Below, piece by piece: positions 26,041-37,388 of a stretch of 52,735 nt of DNA; positions within the stretch are counted from its first letter, which is position 1, and every line of letters begins with the position of its first letter. The notes beneath the pieces were generated by a model. The model searched no databases. It saw only the letters and a program-made list of their open reading frames with translations, and had not been told where the DNA came from. The stretch lies in sequence record PZ662386.1, one strand, 5' to 3'. Source of the stretch: a phage. The translations under genes and the position numbers were made by a program.

Positions 26041-26218
26041 ATCTTATTTTTGGGCCAGCGGGGAGGGGAAGCCCAACGTCCTATCGGACTTAAAATACGG
26101 TCCCTACTCCAACTTTTTCCTACAGCCTATCGGCTTTCAAACAACACCAAGTTAGGCGCTTCGCTTATGGGTCAAGGTCAAAGTCTCCGTGCTGTTGTAA
26201 CAATGGCACAGGTTTGTG

Positions 26219-26236
26219 ATATTAGTTGGACGTGAA
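26219..26236 (+). promoter_or_regulatory. conserved promoter-like motif (candidate phage-RNAP promoter)
   Basis: ATATTAGTTGGACGTGAA, member of the ACATTAGTTGGATGTGAA family; 67 nt upstream of RNAP gene. Confidence 0.4.
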
Positions 26237-26302: not shown

Positions 26303-28243
26303 ATGACTACTATCACCACTCAAACTATCAAATCCGTTGTTCCTGCTATCACTGCTCTGGTATACCGTGCCAAAGAGAAACAGAACTATATGCAGCCTCA
26401 GACTTGTGCTATTGCTGCCTTAGCCATCTTCAAGATGATGACGTCTTTCACTCGTGATGACGTTGTTCCTGCCATCGCGATGGTTGAACTGGCTTCTGCT
26501 TCTATTGCTGATGCCAACCGTTATAACAACGATTTGAAAGCAATGCACTATGTTGACCCAGCTATCAACCTCATTGGTCTGGCTAAGCACTTTGGCTTCA
26601 TCACCATGAACGAAGACAAGTCATTCCAACAGACTGACACATGGGTTGAACTGGTTACAACCAAAGACACCGCAGTGCCATTCACTGAGCGTGTTACATC
26701 TGAATCTCGTCGCAAGCCTTTCGTTAAAGGTGGCAAGGTTAAGCCATCTAAGACTCTGAAAGCTGCAATCGAATTCCTGCAAGATACTGAGTACCATGTG
26801 GAGACTGAGATGGTTCGCATCATCCAGTCCATGCTTGAGCAACGTACTTATGGTGGCTTGCAGATGCCAGAAGCAATCCAGACTGAACTCCATGTTTGGA
26901 ACAATGCTGTAGCAATGATGAATCAGGACACACTGTATTCTGACTACTTTGCTGATAACCGTGGTCGCCTGTATCATGTAGCATGTGCTGGTCCTAACCC
27001 ACAATCATCTGACTTTGCTCGTTGCTTGTATTCTCACAATGTTGAGAACATCGTTAAGAAGTTTAACGAAGATGGTTCTACTACCATTGCATACAATATG
27101 TTCATGGCAGAACTGGAAGACATTTCTGGTGGTGAATGGTGCACTGCTAAGCGTTTGACTTATGTTGCTCAGAATCCTGCTGGTTCACTTGCTCGCATGA
27201 TGAACATGCCTAAAGCTGAACGTCCTTCTAAGCCATTCACTTATGTTCGTCTGGCTCTGGATTGGTTCAAGTTTGAGACTACAGGTGAATGCGATTCTCG
27301 TGTAGGCTTTGGCTTAGATGCTAAATGCTCTGGTACTCAATATCTGGCATTCATTGCTGGCAATATGGAAATGGCTCGTGCAACAGGTCTGGTTGATTCT
27401 GAGACTAAAGCATCTGACCCATACCAGTTGAGTCTTCGTGAACTGTTGAAGCTGCTGGACAAGTCTTCAATGAAGCCATCTCCTGAAATCATGGAAGAGT
27501 TCTTGAATCCGAAAGCTGGTCGTAAGTTTATCAAAACTCCGTACATGGCTATTCAATACGGTGGTGGTAAAGCTGCATTAACTGGTTCTTCTGACTTCAT
27601 TAGCTACATGACAGAAGCTCTCCAGATTCCAGTTGAGAAAGCTGAGGCATTTGCTGAACTGTGTGTGGAAGCAATCCATAACGCATTGGGTGCCAAGATT
27701 AACATGTTCATCGAGAAAGCTGCTGATGCTGCATACAACCGTTGTGTTGAACTCAACAAAGAGTACATCACATACCGTCACACTGACGGTCAGGTTGTAA
27801 TGAAGCCTTGCTTCCCATCCCGTGAAATCTGTGAGGCATTCAGCATTCGTGTTGACTCTCAAACTCGTGTTATCTTTGGTCAGATTCAGGAGAATAAGCC
27901 TTGGACCATTCGTGAATCCAATCCAACTAAAGAAGAATTCAAGCGTACTTTCGTTGTTAACTACATTCAAGGTATTGACGCACTGGTTGCTCGTACTGTT
28001 GCAGTTAAAGCTAAAGAAGCTGGCCTTCGTGGTTTCACTTCAATCCATGATTGTTTCCGTTGCTGTTTGGCAGATGCTCCACGTATGATGGAAGTTATTC
28101 GTGCAGCATATGTTGAAATCTTTGTAACCAACAATCAATTCGAGAATCTGTCTAAGCAACTCGGTGGCATTCAGATGTATCATGAGAACATCGTAACCGA
28201 AGAGCTTCTGATGAGCGAACACGCTTACTACTTCTGTCAATAA
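26303..28243 (+). CDS. single-subunit RNA polymerase (T7-like, compact)
   Basis: T7 RNAP-like motifs DNRGRLY...NPQ, DAKCSGTQY, KTPYMAIQYGGG, SIHDCF; only 646 aa. Confidence 0.8.
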   Translation: MTTITTQTIKSVVPAITALVYRAKEKQNYMQPQTCAIAALAIFKMMTSFTRDDVVPAIAMVELASASIADANRYNNDLKAMHYVDPAINLIGLAKHFGFITMNEDKSFQQTDTWVELVTTKDTAVPFTERVTSESRRKPFVKGGKVKPSKTLKAAIEFLQDTEYHVETEMVRIIQSMLEQRTYGGLQMPEAIQTELHVWNNAVAMMNQDTLYSDYFADNRGRLYHVACAGPNPQSSDFARCLYSHNVENIVKKFNEDGSTTIAYNMFMAELEDISGGEWCTAKRLTYVAQNPAGSLARMMNMPKAERPSKPFTYVRLALDWFKFETTGECDSRVGFGLDAKCSGTQYLAFIAGNMEMARATGLVDSETKASDPYQLSLRELLKLLDKSSMKPSPEIMEEFLNPKAGRKFIKTPYMAIQYGGGKAALTGSSDFISYMTEALQIPVEKAEAFAELCVEAIHNALGAKINMFIEKAADAAYNRCVELNKEYITYRHTDGQVVMKPCFPSREICEAFSIRVDSQTRVIFGQIQENKPWTIRESNPTKEEFKRTFVVNYIQGIDALVARTVAVKAKEAGLRGFTSIHDCFRCCLADAPRMMEVIRAAYVEIFVTNNQFENLSKQLGGIQMYHENIVTEELLMSEHAYYFCQ

Positions 28244-28334: not shown

Positions 28335-29235
28335 GCATGTAATATTGTCCCGATATTCGACATTAGTTGGATGTGAAGTAAAAGAATACGGAGAAATATT
28401 CCGCATGTCATGTTGAATCATTCTAGAAACATTCAGCATGTCAGCTTTGAGTTACAGTGTTGTAATGATGTGGCAATCATTGAACTCCCTGGGAAGGCCA
28501 CCTACAGTTCCAGCAACCATGACACAGAGTAGGAATATCTATCCGAAACTTTGACTTCATCTGTAGCATGTTCAATTGCTCCAATATTGTTCCTTCTCCT
28601 ATTATCAAGGCCCACCCACAAGCCGGGAGATAACTTTAGCAAGACTGGAACTTTTGGACATGCTTCTTTCTTTCAATCAGAATTCGAAAGAAGAGAAGAA
28701 GTCGGACTAAGCCTCTCGTTTGCACGCAGAAGCCGCCCCGATTTTGAGCAACAAATATTGTGACAATTGCGTCGCAGTATGGCATGTAAATATTGCTACA
28801 AATTGGCATGTTGGAATGTGGCAGAATTGTTAGAGGACTAATCACCTCGAAGATACAATCGTCTACCAATCTGGCATGTTAATTTTGTAACAGTATTTGT
28901 GCCAATTTCGCATGTAATAGCTGTATCAGTAGTGACCCAATATTCTTGCAACCCGCATGAATACTGGCTTCCAGCCAAGCGAAGGCTTTATCATCGCATG
29001 TAATATTGTGACAATATTGGGATAAAACCCTTTATTTAAATCATTTAGTTTATTAATTAAATGGTCGGTTTTCTGTACATAGGTATTTAGCTGTTTGTGC
29101 CAAATACAAACAAGTTGGCTGCTTCTACAGAACTCCAGTGCTATAAATGTTCGTGCCAATCTGCTGCGATTTATCTCATTTGGCGGGGTAATATTGTATT
29201 AGATTGGCATGTCATTCTTTCGATTAGTTGCATGT
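28335..29235 (+). repeat. array of about 12 degenerate GCATGT(A)A(T)ATTG-type repeats
   Basis: GCATGT at 28335, 28403, 28436, 28566, 28782, 28806, 28874, 28910, 28996, 29207, 29230 plus a GCATGA variant at 28955; interspersed CAATATTG palindromes. Confidence 0.6.
28360..28377 (+). promoter_or_regulatory. conserved promoter-like motif
   Basis: ACATTAGTTGGATGTGAA exact consensus copy. Confidence 0.4.
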
Positions 29236-29238
29236 GAA
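29221..29238 (+). promoter_or_regulatory. conserved promoter-like motif (variant)
   Basis: CGATTAGTTGCATGTGAA; about 180 nt upstream of the first early ORF. Confidence 0.35.
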
Positions 29239-30966: not shown

Positions 30967-31275
30967 ATGGCTTCTTTACTCGAATTCTCAAATATTGCAA
31001 ATGTTGCTAAGAATTCTATTCCGGAAAATCCGGACGTAATTGCGTACATGCGTGTTGATGTAAGTTTGTTAGCTTTTGTAATGGACCACATCAACCTTGT
31101 TGAAGCGCAGTTATCTCAGTCTTACGAAACAGTTGACACTCTTCGTGGACTTCGTACAGCAGAGCAACAGGCTTATGCTGACCTCATGGAGCAAAAGAAC
31201 AAGCTCCAGGAACAACTGGCAGATGCGCTTCAACAAATTGAAGACATGAAGCCACCAGCAGAGTCAACCGAATAA
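30967..31275 (+). CDS. hypothetical coiled-coil protein
   Basis: 102-aa ORF with RBS; C-terminal heptad-like Gln/Leu-rich segment. Confidence 0.45.
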   Translation: MASLLEFSNIANVAKNSIPENPDVIAYMRVDVSLLAFVMDHINLVEAQLSQSYETVDTLRGLRTAEQQAYADLMEQKNKLQEQLADALQQIEDMKPPAESTE

Positions 31276-31293: not shown

Positions 31294-31554
31294 ATGGCTA
31301 CCAAAACAGGCATGATGATTGTCCCAAGCCGTAATAACTCTTTAAGCGGCTTTACACCATATAAAATCTACGAAGTTATTTCTGGCACTGGTGAAGCAAA
31401 CCTGTCAGAAGTTGCTTTGAAGTTGGGCCGTATGGTCCACTCCGAAATCTCCTGTAACGTAGTTGATGATGAAGGTAAAATCCGTTTTGTAACAATGGAT
31501 TTCTTTCGTGAATTTAACCTAAAATCTGAATTAGGAGTTCTGTACCATGAATGA
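31294..31554 (+). CDS. hypothetical early protein
   Basis: 86-aa ORF, RBS AGGAG. Confidence 0.45.
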   Translation: MATKTGMMIVPSRNNSLSGFTPYKIYEVISGTGEANLSEVALKLGRMVHSEISCNVVDDEGKIRFVTMDFFREFNLKSELGVLYHE

Positions 31555-31729
31555 GGACGATGTTGTTTGCCCGAAGTGTGGCAGCAATAACATAGACCAT
31601 GTAGCACACGAAGCAGTGGGAATGTACGGTCCCGTAGTTCTGGACAGTGCATTCTGTATAGATTGTGGTTTAAACATTTATCGTGGAAAACTTATAGACA
31701 ATAGTGGGAATATCCCGCCAAAAGGATAA
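31547..31729 (+). CDS. small zinc-ribbon protein
   Basis: CPKCG...CIDCG in 60 aa. Confidence 0.4.
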   Translation: MNEDDVVCPKCGSNNIDHVAHEAVGMYGPVVLDSAFCIDCGLNIYRGKLIDNSGNIPPKG

Positions 31730-31731
31730 TC

Positions 31732-31959
31732 ATGAAATTTAAATGTGTTGCTTCAACCAAAGATTATGTTCCAGTTGGCTTCATCGTTGAAGGTGAAGCT
31801 ATCTCACCTTTGGAATTTAAAGTGACCAAATCGGCTGAGAATGTTTCTCCAGCATTTCGTAAAGGCGCTGTAGTGCCTATGAATGGTGCATTCTGGACAT
31901 GGCAGCGTGACCATGAAGCAGAATTTGCAGATATTTGTGAACAAGGTTTATTGCAATGA
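31732..31959 (+). CDS. small protein, paralog family member 1 (KFKCV family)
   Basis: N-terminal MKFKCV and C-terminal W-x-W motif shared with the next two genes. Confidence 0.5.
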   Translation: MKFKCVASTKDYVPVGFIVEGEAISPLEFKVTKSAENVSPAFRKGAVVPMNGAFWTWQRDHEAEFADICEQGLLQ

Positions 31960-32186
31960 CAAAGTTTAAATGCGTGAAATCAACATCTTCATCTGAACAC
32001 TCTCCGAAAGTTGGTGACGTGATTGAGGGAAGGATTATGCACGTAGAGCGAAGAGGCAAAATTGAGCCTCGCATAATCATCTCAAAAGACAGTGACCGTA
32101 AAGATGCCAATGGCATTCCATACTTCGATGAAGGAGAAAATATTCCTTTAGAGGGTGGAATCTGGTCCTGGGAAGAAGTTAAGTAA
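31956..32186 (+). CDS. small protein, paralog family member 2
   Basis: MTKFKCVKS...GIWSWEEVK; ATGA-coupled. Confidence 0.5.
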   Translation: MTKFKCVKSTSSSEHSPKVGDVIEGRIMHVERRGKIEPRIIISKDSDRKDANGIPYFDEGENIPLEGGIWSWEEVK

Positions 32187-32249
32187 TTTCCTCAACCACT
32201 TTTGTAATGAGAGTGGTTGCTGAATATTAATCAACTTGGAGTGCATGAA

Positions 32250-32450
32250 ATGGCCAAATTCAAATGTGTAAAAGGTTTTGAATACGTTCCAGAAGGAACA
32301 ATTCTCGAGGGTATCCAAATAAAGGACAGACTCATACTGACCAAGCCATCTGAACTTCTTGGGATTGACGGAAATCCGAGGTTCCGTGAAGGTGACGACT
32401 TACCAATGGTAGGTAATTTATGGGTTTGGGAGGAGTTAAAGAGCAAATGA
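32250..32450 (+). CDS. small protein, paralog family member 3
   Basis: MAKFKCVKG...NLWVWEELK; ATG at 32250 with GGAG RBS. Confidence 0.5.
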   Translation: MAKFKCVKGFEYVPEGTILEGIQIKDRLILTKPSELLGIDGNPRFREGDDLPMVGNLWVWEELKSK

Positions 32451-32737
32451 AACAGCGTACTCGTTTACAACGTGACCCAGCCACAGGTCGCATGTTGCCA
32501 GCATATTTGAAAGTTGGTGACTTAGTTTATACTAAAGATTATGCATTTGATATTTGTCCAAACAAAGTTTATGTTGTTCTTGCCACCAGCTTGTCAAAAC
32601 CTAAAGTGCTATTTGGCGCACTTGAGCCAATTCAGTTAACCGGAACTCAGTTTGTCATTAAAGATGACTCTGGCCTTACGCGCATCTTCAGTCTTGAAGG
32701 TGGATTATCCAAGTGGGAGAAGGTGAAACGTGGGTAA
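32447..32737 (+). CDS. hypothetical early protein
   Basis: ATG at 32447 with GGAGGAG RBS; ATGA coupling. Confidence 0.45.
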   Translation: MKQRTRLQRDPATGRMLPAYLKVGDLVYTKDYAFDICPNKVYVVLATSLSKPKVLFGALEPIQLTGTQFVIKDDSGLTRIFSLEGGLSKWEKVKRG

Positions 32738-32963
32738 GAATTATATCGAAATGTTTAAGCGATTGTCTATAAATGGGCAGGAGTTCTTGTTAAACGATGT
32801 AAGACAAGATATTGAATTGTCTGACAAGTATTCTTATTTTGCCCAAAAGACAATTGTGAAGTGGACATTCTCTTACGTGTCCGCCAGTATTCCAGTAGAA
32901 ACGCTTGTAATTAGCGGTTCTGGTGATTCAGTTTTAGCAGCTTTGGAGAAACTAAAGCAATGA
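32730..32963 (+). CDS. hypothetical early protein
   Basis: 77-aa ORF, GTG start. Confidence 0.4.
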   Translation: MGKNYIEMFKRLSINGQEFLLNDVRQDIELSDKYSYFAQKTIVKWTFSYVSASIPVETLVISGSGDSVLAALEKLKQ

Positions 32964-33247
32964 ACAAGAATTCAATCTTACGTTATGTTGGTAAAACAAA
33001 TTACAGCTTTACCTACGGTAAGAAGTACAAAATCGTCGCAGGTCGTGGTGACGGGGTTCCTCGCAACAACGGTACACTCGGTGCGTATATTCAATCTCCT
33101 TTGGGTTTTGTCGTTAATGACGATAACCGCAATTTATGTTATCGTACATTCTCCGATAATTGGGAACTTGTGAAAGATTCTGGTGAAGTTAGTTGGTATA
33201 AACCTGAATCAAACGTGGACCCAATTCCAATTTCAAAGGTGATGTGA
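32960..33247 (+). CDS. hypothetical early protein
   Basis: 95-aa ORF, overlap-coupled. Confidence 0.4.
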   Translation: MNKNSILRYVGKTNYSFTYGKKYKIVAGRGDGVPRNNGTLGAYIQSPLGFVVNDDNRNLCYRTFSDNWELVKDSGEVSWYKPESNVDPIPISKVM

Positions 33248-33477: not shown

Positions 33478-33519
33478 ATTAACAATGGGCATCTCTTGTA
33501 GGTGTCCATGATTAATCTA

Positions 33520-33537
33520 ACATTAGTTGGATGTGAG
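33520..33537 (+). promoter_or_regulatory. conserved promoter-like motif
   Basis: ACATTAGTTGGATGTGAG; 71 nt upstream of the SSB-tail gene. Confidence 0.4.
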
Positions 33538-33608: not shown

Positions 33609-33965
33609 ATGGCACAATATTCAGATGTAAACACTGGCATCATCGGTCCTAACGGCTTCAAGAAAGACCCAAAACATCCTGACATTCGTGGACGTATTAA
33701 CGTTGACGGAATCTGGTATTGGGTGTCTGGTTGGAACAAGCAAGCAAATGGCAATGAATTTACCTCGCTGGCACTCACCATTATGACCCAAGAGCAGGTT
33801 GATGAAATGATGCGTAAGCGTGAAGAGAAAGCTAAAGCCAAAGCTCAACCTCAAGCCGCTGCACAACAGCAACAGCAACGTCAGCAACCTTCTGCTGCAC
33901 AGCAACAGCAGGGTAATTACAATCCGAACGAGCCGAAAGACTTCGACGACGACATTCCATTCTAA
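33609..33965 (+). CDS. small protein with bacterial SSB-type C-terminal tail (DFDDDIPF)
   Basis: Last 8 residues DFDDDIPF preceded by a Gln/Ala/Pro-rich linker; N-terminal ~75 aa possibly a small OB-like domain. Confidence 0.6.
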   Translation: MAQYSDVNTGIIGPNGFKKDPKHPDIRGRINVDGIWYWVSGWNKQANGNEFTSLALTIMTQEQVDEMMRKREEKAKAKAQPQAAAQQQQQRQQPSAAQQQQGNYNPNEPKDFDDDIPF

Positions 33966-36550: not shown

Positions 36551-36841
36551 ATGGAGCATCCGATGGAATATCAGGAGATACCGAAAGAGTTAGAGCGTAT
36601 GCAATCTCGCACATCTCGTGCAGAGGCAGAACTCCACCAGCATTTGTCAAACTATGTGCACGATTCCCGAAAACTTAGGTCCGAAATTGCGGTTGATGGT
36701 TGTTGCTATCTAGTAACATACGACGAGAAGACCGCCATCTTAGACGTATTAGTAAAGAGTGGAAAAGAGCGAATCGAACAGCTCAAAATCCTTAATGCGG
36801 AACTTCAAGGTATGTGGGAGAAACTCAATGCAAAACGATAA
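36551..36841 (+). CDS. hypothetical protein
   Basis: 96-aa ORF. Confidence 0.4.
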   Translation: MEHPMEYQEIPKELERMQSRTSRAEAELHQHLSNYVHDSRKLRSEIAVDGCCYLVTYDEKTAILDVLVKSGKERIEQLKILNAELQGMWEKLNAKR

Positions 36842-37388
36842 CATTACTCAAGCAGTAGAACAGCTTAAGTCCTGGCGTAGAGATGAAACCTTATTGGTTC
36901 GTTTCTACACAGACGTCTACAAAGGCGAAAGCAGTTCTGAATTTGTAGATGCGTGGATTGATGGCCTGTCTTGGCGTCACTATGATTTCGACATGCGGGA
37001 TTATTTGCATGAAGAATACGGCATTGAATATCCTGAAACTGGTACATACGACATTCTGGAATCAAGCGAAGAAGACGTTACAGAAGTTTGCTTTGCTAAC
37101 GGCCTGTTCAGCATTCGTAAGTACGATAAGTTCAATGAACTGCTCGTTGACACCGACTTGGATGTAATTCTTGCTGCATTCCGTAGTGGTGATATCGATA
37201 TTTTCACTGTAGACGATTTGAATGACAAGGTTGTTTGCCGATGTGATTCAATTGCGGATTATTTCCAGCAATATGATGGCATAGAAGTTCCAGACCATCT
37301 TCGTCCATATATTGATTGGGATGCAGTTGCAAGAGATTACGGAAGCGATTACACTTTCTCCGAAGGGATACTATTCTCAAATGCGTGA
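36828..37388 (+). CDS. hypothetical strongly acidic protein
   Basis: ATG at 36828 with GGGAGA RBS; Asp/Glu-rich throughout. Confidence 0.45.
   Translation: MQNDNITQAVEQLKSWRRDETLLVRFYTDVYKGESSSEFVDAWIDGLSWRHYDFDMRDYLHEEYGIEYPETGTYDILESSEEDVTEVCFANGLFSIRKYDKFNELLVDTDLDVILAAFRSGDIDIFTVDDLNDKVVCRCDSIADYFQQYDGIEVPDHLRPYIDWDAVARDYGSDYTFSEGILFSNA

What the first reader, a model, noticed from the sequence alone, without database searches (positions are those of the whole stretch)
31732..32450. Tandem triplication of a small early gene family (KFKCV...W-x-W-E-E)
Three consecutive 66-76-aa ORFs share an N-terminal (M)KFKCV motif and a C-terminal W-x-W-(Q/E)-E motif but are otherwise diverged. Tandem diversified paralogs in an early region often mark host-interaction or counter-defence genes under diversifying selection.
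Basis: seen in the sequence. Interest (0 to 1): 0.4.

Follow-up and report, generated by a model that had tools for sequence, protein, structure and literature searches.

The report
Three SH3-like early phage paralogs
Three neighbouring small genes of this coliphage belong to one uncharacterised family of tiny beta-barrel proteins: one copy is conserved, one is a hotspot of variation between related phages and the third is a rare extra insertion, which marks them as candidate host-interaction genes with no demonstrated function.

Summary
ORFs 31732-31959, 31956-32186 and 32250-32450 are homologous (40-43% identity, alignment z 13-23). All three match PHROG 18786/24403, whose function is unknown. 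The window is a Carltongylesvirus genome (phiEcoM-GJ1/ST32-like). The genes lie between the T7-like RNA polymerase gene and the SSB gene, downstream of phage-specific promoters.

"Tandem triplication" is misleading. The copies share no nucleotide similarity and form three deep clades. Thirteen relatives carry copies 1 and 2. Copy 3 is a ~205-nt cassette between the ribosome-binding site and start codon of the next gene, seen in only one other contig.

With a 41-sequence alignment, AlphaFold2 gives a confident five-strand SH3-like barrel (pLDDT 94). It has no significant PDB, Pfam or NCBIfam match.

Copy 1 is under purifying selection (94% identity, dN/dS 0.11). Copy 2 is hypervariable (68% identity, nucleotide diversity 0.27-0.37 against 0.03-0.15 in most flanking sequence). 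Its dS is saturated and pN/pS is 0.48, so this looks like old alleles exchanged by recombination, not proven positive selection. The N4-like homologue is equally variable (60% versus 98% for its neighbour).

Fusions to itself and to four unrelated modules suggest a binding domain. A host-interaction or counter-defence role is plausible but untested.

The parts
31732..31959 (+). c1: the conserved family member (75 aa), ortholog of phiEcoM-GJ1 gp10. It consists of the SH3-like core plus a ~15-residue C-terminal tail.
   Evidence: PHROG 18786 E 1.4e-32. Present in all 13 relatives, mean aa identity 0.94, dN/dS 0.11. Its stop codon overlaps the c2 start codon (ATGA).
31956..32186 (+). c2: the hypervariable family member (76 aa), ortholog of phiEcoM-GJ1 gp11.
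   Evidence: PHROG 18786 E 1.2e-23. Mean aa identity 0.68 among 14 genomes, alleles of 68 or 76 aa, dN 0.22, dS 1.1. The same slot holds a fused double domain in L017 and an extra c2-type copy in FXie-2024a.
32014..32149 (+). Hypervariable core of c2. By alignment to the c3 model it covers the beta2-beta3 hairpin, including an 8-residue indel, and the long beta3-beta4 loop.
   Evidence: Nucleotide diversity 0.27-0.37 here, against 0.03-0.15 in most 45-nt windows of the flanking sequence (up to 0.21 in other mosaic patches). pN/pS is 0.48 in alignment columns 26-62, against 0.17 and 0.21 at the two ends. Strand positions come from the c3 model.
32193..32219 (+). Conserved 11-bp RNA hairpin directly after c2. 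It is annotated as a rho-independent terminator in phage SA91KD but has no U-tract. It travels with the gene when the unit is duplicated.
   Evidence: The 86-nt stretch 32175-32260 that contains it folds at -19.7 kcal/mol, z -2.1. Diversity is 0.03-0.07. It is duplicated together with the extra copy in FXie-2024a. Annotation.
32242..32446 (+). c3 cassette, about 205 nt, inserted between the ribosome-binding site (GGAG, 32238-32241) and the ATG of the next gene. It is absent from all 46 related phage records.
   Evidence: Alignment with SA91KD, FXie-2024a and L005. The megablast coverage gap is seen in all 46 records.
32250..32450 (+). c3: the extra family member (66 aa, core domain only).
   Evidence: PHROG 18786 E 4.6e-16 and PHROG 24403 E 4.2e-14. 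AF2 model pLDDT 94.4, pTM 0.79, five strands. Only one close homologue, P0001 (91%), among 5.8e9 clusters. No phage record matches above 60%.
32447..32737 (+). Downstream gene (96 aa, ortholog of phiEcoM-GJ1 gp12). Its true start is ATG 32447, overlapping the c3 stop codon (ATGA), not the longer ORF start at 32420.
   Evidence: Orthologs start MKQRTRLQRDP. PHROG 21002.
28358..28377 (+). Phage-specific (T7-like RNA polymerase) promoter P1, CGACATTAGTTGGATGTGAA. A second copy lies at 29219-29238, and the next unit starts at 33518-33537.
   Evidence: Exact or near matches to the promoters annotated in phiEcoM-GJ1 and SA91KD.
26303..28243 (+). Single-subunit RNA polymerase gene, which marks the start of the early block.
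   Evidence: Pfam RNA_pol PF00940, E 1.5e-18. Ortholog of phiEcoM-GJ1 gp01.

Best explanation
SHOWN:
- The three ORFs are real genes of one uncharacterised phage protein family (PHROG 18786/24403).
- The ~65-residue core is confidently predicted as a five-stranded SH3-like beta-barrel.
- The genes lie in the block of small genes between the T7-like RNA polymerase gene and the SSB gene, downstream of the phage-specific promoters.
- c1->c2 and c3->next gene have overlapping stop and start codons (ATGA), which suggests translational coupling.
- The trio is not a recent triplication. c1 and c2 are an old pair, fixed in Carltongylesvirus, and c3 is a third, deeply diverged family member that arrived as a ~205-nt cassette.
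- c1 is conserved. The c2 slot is a hotspot where divergent alleles, indels, extra copies and fused double domains replace one another between conserved flanks (the c1/c2 junction and the hairpin).

INFERRED:
- The barrel is a stable scaffold. Its beta2-beta3 hairpin and long loop form a variable binding surface for a partner protein that itself varies between hosts.
- The most likely partner is a host factor or defence component met early in infection.
- Extra copies (c3, the FXie-2024a copy, the fused doubles) widen the range of partners covered.
- The recurrent adjacency or fusion of a c1-type domain with another family member suggests that they act together, possibly as a hetero-oligomer.
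For: - Homology and coding reality. ORFs are intact in all genomes, with dN/dS 0.11-0.20.
- Fold: pLDDT 94.4, pTM 0.79.
- Early transcription unit: inferred from the promoter and RNA polymerase gene positions.
- c3 as an insertion. Its rarity.
- Deep paralogy.
- c2 hotspot: identity 0.68 against 0.94 for c1 and its immediate neighbours. For window versus ST32, pS is 0.08 in c1 but 0.57 in c2. Diversity peaks at 0.37.
- Copy-number and fusion variation at the same slot.
- Independent replication in Schitoviridae: the family member has 0.60 identity against 0.98 for the adjacent gp1.
- Accessory distribution: only 49 representatives among 1.84e9 proteins. All members whose source was traced (about a dozen) lie in enterobacterial phages or phage-like contigs of three lineages: Carltongylesvirus, N4-like phages between gp1 and gp2, and ~44-kb siphoviruses upstream of the terminase gene.
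- Modularity: the domain is fused to PHROG 7411, PHROG 19863, DUF7279, a helical tail and itself.
- Against nucleic-acid binding: family pI spans 4-10, and c2 alleles span 4.6-9.9, so there is no conserved charge.
Against: - No family member has any experimental or annotated function.
- The structure search gives only generic SH3, KOW and Rpp29 resemblances at E > 1, so no partner can be named.
- pN/pS never exceeds 1, and dS in c2 is saturated, so relaxed constraint or neutral mosaicism is not excluded.
- Another small gene in the block (30967-31275) is similarly variable, so variability is not unique to this family.
- Oligomerisation was not modelled.
Confidence: 0.45

Rival explanations
1. 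One reading: a recent in-situ tandem triplication of one gene, followed by rapid diversification under positive selection.
For: The three homologous genes are adjacent, on the same strand, with conserved termini. In FXie-2024a a gene-plus-hairpin unit does look locally duplicated or recombined in.
Against: There is no nucleotide similarity between the copies. The three copies form three deep clades with relatives elsewhere, and in 89% of bootstrap resamplings the nearest relative of c3 is neither c1- nor c2-type. The c1+c2 pair is already present in all 13 relatives, and c3 is a clean insertion. c1 has dN/dS 0.11, and no segment has pN/pS > 1.
Confidence: 0.07
2. Trigger escape rather than inhibition. 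The proteins have a conserved phage-internal or host-takeover job, and c2 varies because host abortive-infection or defence sensors recognise it, which selects for escape alleles.
For: The evidence is the same variability pattern: conserved scaffold residues with variable hairpin and loop, seen in two phage families. The ORF is always intact.
Against: Gain of extra copies (c3, FXie-2024a, fused doubles) is hard to reconcile with a protein that is a liability. No defence system is known to sense this family.
Confidence: 0.15
3. Small SH3/LSm/KOW-like nucleic-acid-binding regulators of phage gene expression, analogous to what has been proposed for the T4 early proteins GoF, MotB.1 and Frd.2.
For: The fold class (small five-strand barrel) is shared with Sm, KOW and Rpp29 proteins, which appear among the weak Foldseek hits. 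T4 also has a family of small early paralogs with an LSm-like fold (PMC12152347). A conserved RNA hairpin follows c2.
Against: All Foldseek matches have E > 1 and TM about 0.4-0.5. The model has no N-terminal helix. Net charge and pI are not conserved (4-10). tblastn with c3 finds no T4-like phage.
Confidence: 0.13
4. Dispensable, near-neutral mosaic filler. The genes persist because they sit between recombination-prone conserved sequences, and c2 variability reflects relaxed constraint only.
For: pN/pS is 0.48 in the c2 core and dS is saturated. The whole block is mosaic, and 30967-31275 is also variable.
Against: The reading frames are intact, and the scaffold residues (C6, G16, G48, P52, G55, W58, W60) are conserved across three phage lineages and metagenomes. 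c1 is under strong purifying selection. The family has been acquired repeatedly.
Confidence: 0.15

Closest known systems
PHROG 18786 / PHROG 24403 (phage protein families of unknown function), e.g. phiEcoM-GJ1 gp10 and gp11, ST32_0012/0013, PhAPEC7 gene 2
   Same: Direct sequence membership for all three ORFs. c1 and c2 are orthologs of GJ1 gp10 and gp11.
   Different: c3 is a divergent member, at most 52% identical to anything except one metagenomic contig. It sits in a slot that is empty in all 46 related phage records.
T4 GoF / MotB.1 / Frd.2 LSm-like early protein family (PMC12152347)
   Same: Several small paralogous early phage proteins whose only common feature is a predicted SH3/LSm-type barrel, with function largely unknown.
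   Different: There is no detectable sequence relationship. No N-terminal helix is predicted. The family here is hypervariable and modular, and nothing links it to RNA.
SH3 / SH3-like small barrels (spectrin SH3, KOW, Rpp29; Pfam YorP PF09629)
   Same: Five-strand all-beta barrel of about 60 residues. These are the top structural neighbours, and c2 has a weak YorP hit.
   Different: Foldseek E > 1, TM 0.4-0.5, rmsd 4-6 A. YorP scores 13.7 bits against a cut-off of 25. This is a resemblance of fold class only.
Phage accessory-gene hotspots that hold counter-defence genes (e.g. Silas et al., bioRxiv 10.1101/2023.04.06.535777)
   Same: Variable small genes at a fixed position between conserved flanks in related phages, in early regions.
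   Different: No member of this family is mentioned there, and no counter-defence activity has been shown.

Membership tests
PHROG 18786 / 24403 | Significant match to the family profile over its full length | tested here: met
   E 1.4e-32, 1.2e-23 and 4.6e-16, covering profile positions 1-68. A family HMM built here gives E 1e-23 to 1e-26.
Pfam YorP (PF09629) | Score at or above the gathering threshold (25 bits) | tested here: not met
   Only c2 hits, at 13.7 bits and E 0.07. One of 41 family members hits at all.
SH3-like barrel fold | Five antiparallel strands forming a small barrel, with significant structural similarity to solved SH3-like domains | tested here: inconclusive
   The confident model has five strands. 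The best PDB matches are SH3 domains, but with E 1.1-5 and TM 0.35-0.5.
LSm-like early phage proteins (T4 GoF family) | Sequence or structural homology to GoF, MotB.1 or Frd.2; an N-terminal helix followed by a bent five-strand sheet | tested here: not met
   tblastn with c3 against 50,697 phage records hits no T4-like phage. The model has no helix. No direct structure-to-structure comparison was run.
Anti-defence / host-takeover proteins | Demonstrated binding to or inhibition of a host defence or host factor | not testable with these tools
   Only the context (early block, accessory distribution, hypervariability) is available.
Gene under positive diversifying selection | dN/dS > 1 for the gene, a segment or individual sites | tested here: not met
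   Whole-gene ratio is 0.20. The variable core has pN/pS 0.48, and the highest single pair is about 0.66. dS is saturated. Site models were not run.
Diversity-generating retroelement target | A template repeat near-identical to the variable region, plus a reverse transcriptase | tested here: not met
   blastn of c1, c2 and c3 against the whole window finds no second copy longer than 26 nt. No explicit search for a reverse transcriptase was run.
Recent tandem duplication | Nucleotide similarity between copies, with the copies as each other's closest relatives | tested here: not met
   No nucleotide similarity. The copies form three deep clades, and c3 is nearest to outside members in 443 of 500 resamplings.

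The most novel reading that the evidence does not exclude
The family is a phage-borne 'binder scaffold': a rigid SH3-like barrel whose hairpin and loop are swapped between alleles. Each allele would neutralise a different variant of a polymorphic host defence or host target. Phages of three unrelated lineages would extend their host range by collecting extra copies or by fusing the domain to effector modules. c1 would act as a constant partner subunit.
Probability: 0.2. Interest if true: 0.6.

Novelty: new member of a known kind. Interest (0 to 1): 0.35.

Why it matters
If the inference holds, this family would be a compact, confidently foldable candidate for counter-defence or host-takeover screens in coliphages that are used for biocontrol and therapy (Carltongylesvirus, N4-like and ~44-kb siphoviruses).

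The c2 slot would give a natural allele series for mapping specificity. The c3 cassette shows how such genes are added without disturbing operon translation.

As it stands, this is a well-delimited family of unknown function with an unusual variability pattern. It is useful as a lead, not a discovery.

Tried and rejected
- **Family and sequence libraries.** Pfam, NCBIfam and PDB sequence searches on single proteins and on the 41-sequence profile gave nothing significant. The best were YorP at E 0.07, ribosomal L14 at E 1.7 and Gp15 at E 0.37.
- **First structure model.** AF2 with only the three paralogs was poor (pLDDT 59) and was discarded.
- **Structure search.** Foldseek against the PDB gave only generic SH3-like hits at E > 1. 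Against BFVD it gave only uncharacterised family members.
- **Homologue retrieval.** The word-indexed protein search with c3 found one homologue. The viral-contig scan returned only three near-identical loci.
- **Neighbouring genes as extra family members.** Tested for 31294-31554, 32447-32737 and 32960-33247. Only the gp12 homolog shows a hint (pairwise BLASTP E 3e-4 on the C-terminal 43 residues; HMM E 0.38), so none was accepted.
- **Other mechanisms.** A DGR-type mechanism was rejected. An HNH homing endonuclease in L005 was considered as the cause of local divergence and rejected, because the adjacent c1 is conserved.
- **Literature.** Searches for phiEcoM-GJ1 and Carltongylesvirus early genes, Gamaleyavirus early genes, the PHROG identifiers and accessory-gene screens gave no functional data.
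- **Co-variation.** c2 allele type against the variable gene 30967-31275 was only inspected by eye and shows no obvious linkage.

Full report
**What the window is.**
- Region 31200-33300 matches 46 phage records at 84-92% nucleotide identity. Nearly all are Carltongylesvirus (Chaseviridae): phiEcoM-GJ1, ST32, SA91KD, DE15, flopper and the Yersinia PYps phages.
- The window (52,735 bp) is about one genome length of these phages.
- A single-subunit RNA polymerase gene lies at 26303-28243 (Pfam RNA_pol).
- Copies of the phage-specific promoter annotated in phiEcoM-GJ1 and SA91KD (CGACATTAGTTGGATGTGAA) lie at 28358, 29219, 33518 and 39930.
- An SSB gene with a DDDIPF tail lies at 33609-33965.
- The finding therefore sits in the block of about 20 small ORFs between the polymerase gene and the SSB gene, downstream of phage promoters P1 and P2. 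By position this is an early, phage-polymerase-driven unit. Timing was not measured.

**Checking the observation.**
- The three ORFs exist as described: c1 31732-31959 (75 aa), c2 31956-32186 (76 aa) and c3 32250-32450 (66 aa).
- The start of c3 is ATG 32250, preceded by GGAG, not the TTG at 32217 of the mechanical ORF.
- The copies are 40-43% identical, with 19 invariant columns.
- Pairwise local alignment scores lie 13-23 standard deviations above shuffled controls.
- All three match PHROG 18786 (E 1e-32 to 5e-16) and PHROG 24403.
- A family HMM finds exactly these three ORFs in the six-frame translation of the window.
- c1 deviates at the C-terminus (WTWQR plus a 15-residue tail).
- c1 and c2 overlap by ATGA, and so do c3 and the next gene.

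**Not a recent triplication.**
- blastn of each copy against the window finds only itself.
- All 13 relatives examined carry c1 and c2, the orthologs of phiEcoM-GJ1 gp10 and gp11. These are followed by a hairpin and the gp12 ortholog.
- Alignment with SA91KD shows that c3 is a cassette of about 205 nt placed between the GGAG ribosome-binding site and the ATG of the gp12 ortholog. The true start of that gene is therefore 32447, now overlapping the c3 stop codon.
- None of the 46 related records has this cassette (coverage gap). No phage record encodes anything more than 60% identical to c3.
- The only close homologue among 5.8e9 protein clusters is P0001 (91%). It comes from a ~52.5-kb contig labelled E. 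coli and from a Logan contig with the same c1-c2-c3 layout.
- In a neighbour-joining tree of 54 core domains, c1-type, c2-type and c3-type sequences form three deep groups.
- In 443 of 500 column resamplings the closest relative of c3 is neither c1- nor c2-type. It is a metagenomic or N4-like member instead.
- The most economical reading is horizontal acquisition of an old paralog. The donor is unknown.

**Size and spread of the family.**
- An exhaustive HMMER search of 1.84e9 representative proteins with the three-paralog profile found only 49 proteins at E <= 1e-3, and 19 at E <= 1e-10.
- Their sequences share M-x-K-F-x-C ... V-P-V-G ... G ... D-S ... P-x-F/W-x-x-G ... P-x-x-G-x-W-x-W-E-E-V-K, and many end exactly at EEVK.
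- All members whose source was traced (about a dozen) lie in three lineages of enterobacterial phages or phage-like contigs:
  - Carltongylesvirus-like genomes.
  - N4-like Schitoviridae (Gamaleyavirus and Klebsiella KP8-like phages), at the extreme left end between gp1 and the gp2-like gene.
  - ~44-kb siphoviruses such as vB_EcoS-2004III and BEK1-1, in a small-gene block upstream of the small terminase gene.
- tblastn found no hit in phages named for Pectobacterium, Erwinia or Aeromonas, hosts that I recall for other Chaseviridae genera. This fits an accessory gene rather than a core gene.
- No source gives any member a functional name.

**Structure.**
- With three sequences AF2 was unreliable (pLDDT 59).
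- With the 41-sequence alignment the c3 model is confident: pLDDT 94.4, pTM 0.79, and all five models at or above 92.
- It has five strands (residues 2-9, 18-24, 27-30, 50-52 and 58-62) and a long irregular 31-49 segment.
- Foldseek against the PDB gives nothing below E = 1. The top of the list is SH3 domains, KOW/RfaH-CTD, Rpp29 and ribosomal barrels at TM 0.35-0.5.
- Against BFVD only uncharacterised family members match.
- Profile searches of PDB sequences, Pfam and NCBIfam are negative. The YorP hit (13.7 bits against a cut-off of 25) fails.
- The fold class is a small SH3-like barrel. Nothing more specific can be claimed.

**Evolutionary pattern in 14 Carltongylesvirus genomes or contigs (window plus 13).**
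- c1: mean aa identity 0.94, dN/dS 0.11. This is similar to its immediate neighbours, the 86-aa upstream gene (0.95, 0.08) and the gp12 ortholog (0.94, 0.09).
- c2: mean identity 0.68 (minimum 0.57), alleles of 68 or 76 aa, dN 0.22, dS about 1.1 (saturated), ratio 0.20.
- Variation is concentrated in alignment columns 26-62: pN 0.30 and pN/pS 0.48, against 0.17 and 0.21 at the two ends.
- Sliding-window nucleotide diversity peaks at 0.27-0.37 over 32014-32149. Most flanking windows are 0.03-0.15, with other mosaic patches reaching about 0.2, and the hairpin is only 0.03-0.07.
- Window versus ST32 is telling. c1 is identical in protein (pS 0.08), while c2 has pN 0.20 and pS 0.57. So c2 has a different, much older history than its neighbour, which indicates allele replacement by recombination.
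- pN/pS never exceeds 1 (highest pairs about 0.66), so positive selection is not demonstrated.
- Aligned to the c3 model, the variable stretch covers the beta2-beta3 hairpin (with the 8-residue indel) and the long loop. The Gly, Pro and Trp scaffold positions stay fixed.
- There is no DGR-like template repeat.

**The c2 slot also varies in copy number.**
- FXie-2024a carries an additional c2-type gene together with a second copy of the hairpin.
- Metagenomic Carltongylesvirus-like contigs carry a fused two-domain protein, P0011, at this slot.
- The window and L005 carry c3.
- A more distant contig, L016, has a fusion of another family member with a c1-type domain (P0006). L031 has the two as adjacent genes in the order X-c1.
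- In every such genome examined that is complete across the locus, a c1-type domain is paired with at least one other family member. This is the basis for suggesting that they act together.

**Independent replication.** In seven Gamaleyaviruses the family member (gene 2) averages 0.60 identity (minimum 0.39). The adjacent gp1 averages 0.98.

**Modularity.**
- The core is fused C-terminally to a helical tail ending EYESAKAELLKRLS (N4-like phages, PHROG 24403).
- It is also fused to PHROG 7411, which occurs on its own in other ~43-47-kb coliphages.
- Further partners are PHROG 19863 (Cys-rich), DUF7279 and the domain itself.
- All partners are of unknown function.
- Family pI ranges from 4 to 10 (median 6.2), and c2 alleles alone span 4.6-9.9. 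This argues against a conserved nucleic-acid-binding surface.

**Interpretation.**
- *Shown:* homology; coding reality; position in the early phage-polymerase-promoter block; fold class; conserved c1 against hypervariable c2; the cassette nature of c3; recurrence of variability in a second phage family; fusions.
- *Inferred:* the barrel is a scaffold that presents a variable hairpin and loop to a variable partner, most likely a host protein or defence component. Extra copies would broaden coverage, and c1 would be a constant partner.
- I put about 0.85 on the structural and evolutionary description. I put about 0.4 on the host-interaction or counter-defence role, with 0.45 entered overall.

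**Novelty and score.**
- c1 and c2 are already in databases as hypothetical proteins.
- c3 is a new, rare member of a catalogued family of unknown function, so I file the finding as a new member of a known kind.
- As far as the searched literature shows, the hypervariability of the c2 slot, its parallel in N4-like phages and the confident orphan-like fold have not been described.
- They make the family a reasonable candidate for functional screens, but nothing here would surprise a specialist.
- Interest 0.35.

Noticed in passing
window 32193-32219 (context 32187-32249): An 11-bp hairpin follows c2 and is the most conserved non-coding stretch of the region (diversity 0.03-0.07). It is annotated as a rho-independent terminator in SA91KD but is followed by CUGAAUAUUA rather than a U-tract. 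In FXie-2024a it is duplicated together with the extra gene, and one variant keeps pairing through one-sided changes. It could be a phage-polymerase terminator or pause site, an RNase III site, or a recombination anchor.
   Followed up: partly
L005 2204-2485 (Logan SRR29657913): In the only other c3-carrying contig the c2 stop codon is TAA->GAA. c2 therefore reads through the hairpin for 17 extra residues (93 aa), and the gp12 ortholog starts with GTG overlapping the c3 stop codon.
   Followed up: no
window 31547-31729; L005 1540-1968: The slot between the 86-aa gene and c1 is itself variable. The window has a 60-aa zinc-ribbon ORF (CPKCG...CIDCG), present in 9 of the 14 genomes. The slot is empty in phiEcoM-GJ1, YSF and PYps16N. 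In L005 it holds a 142-aa ORF with an HNH-like motif (HHDDYNFVLNVRWLCNKHHAEWH), possibly a homing endonuclease.
   Followed up: partly
window 32447-32737: The C-terminus of the gp12 ortholog (LEGGLSKWEKVK) resembles the family's LEGGIWSWEEVK. Pairwise BLASTP gives E 3e-4 over 43 residues, and it is the best sub-threshold HMM hit (E 0.38). It may be a very distant fourth relative, or this may be a short convergent motif. The longest ORF (from 32420) overstates the gene; the true start is 32447.
   Followed up: partly
window 30967-31275: A 102-aa coiled-coil-like protein upstream is also highly variable among relatives (mean aa identity 0.69, minimum 0.42, two clear allele classes). Mosaic allele exchange is therefore not confined to c2.
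   Followed up: partly
window 33609-33965: The SSB homologue (PHROG 7364) has a Gln-rich linker and an E. coli SSB-like acidic tip (DDDIPF). It is 118 aa here, against 123-126 aa in relatives.
   Followed up: no
window 36759-37388: A 209-aa ORF has a sub-threshold ArdA match (21 bits against a cut-off of 27). It may correspond to the 'anti-restriction protein' gp22 annotated in phiEcoM-GJ1, which would place a possible counter-defence gene in the next transcription unit.
   Followed up: no
phage record PP952070.1 (H17): A record named 'Staphylococcus phage Pel53' (host given as S. hyicus) is 84% identical to this Carltongylesvirus region over 76% of the query. This is probably a host mislabel or a contaminant.
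   Followed up: no
window 26217-26236: A fifth, weaker copy of the phage promoter motif (3 mismatches) lies just upstream of the RNA polymerase gene itself.
   Followed up: no
L030 2240-2680 (Logan SRR15882462): P0019, among the nearest relatives of c3 (52% identity), lies in a small-gene block two genes downstream of a 146-aa ORF with a weak Macro-domain hit.
   Followed up: no
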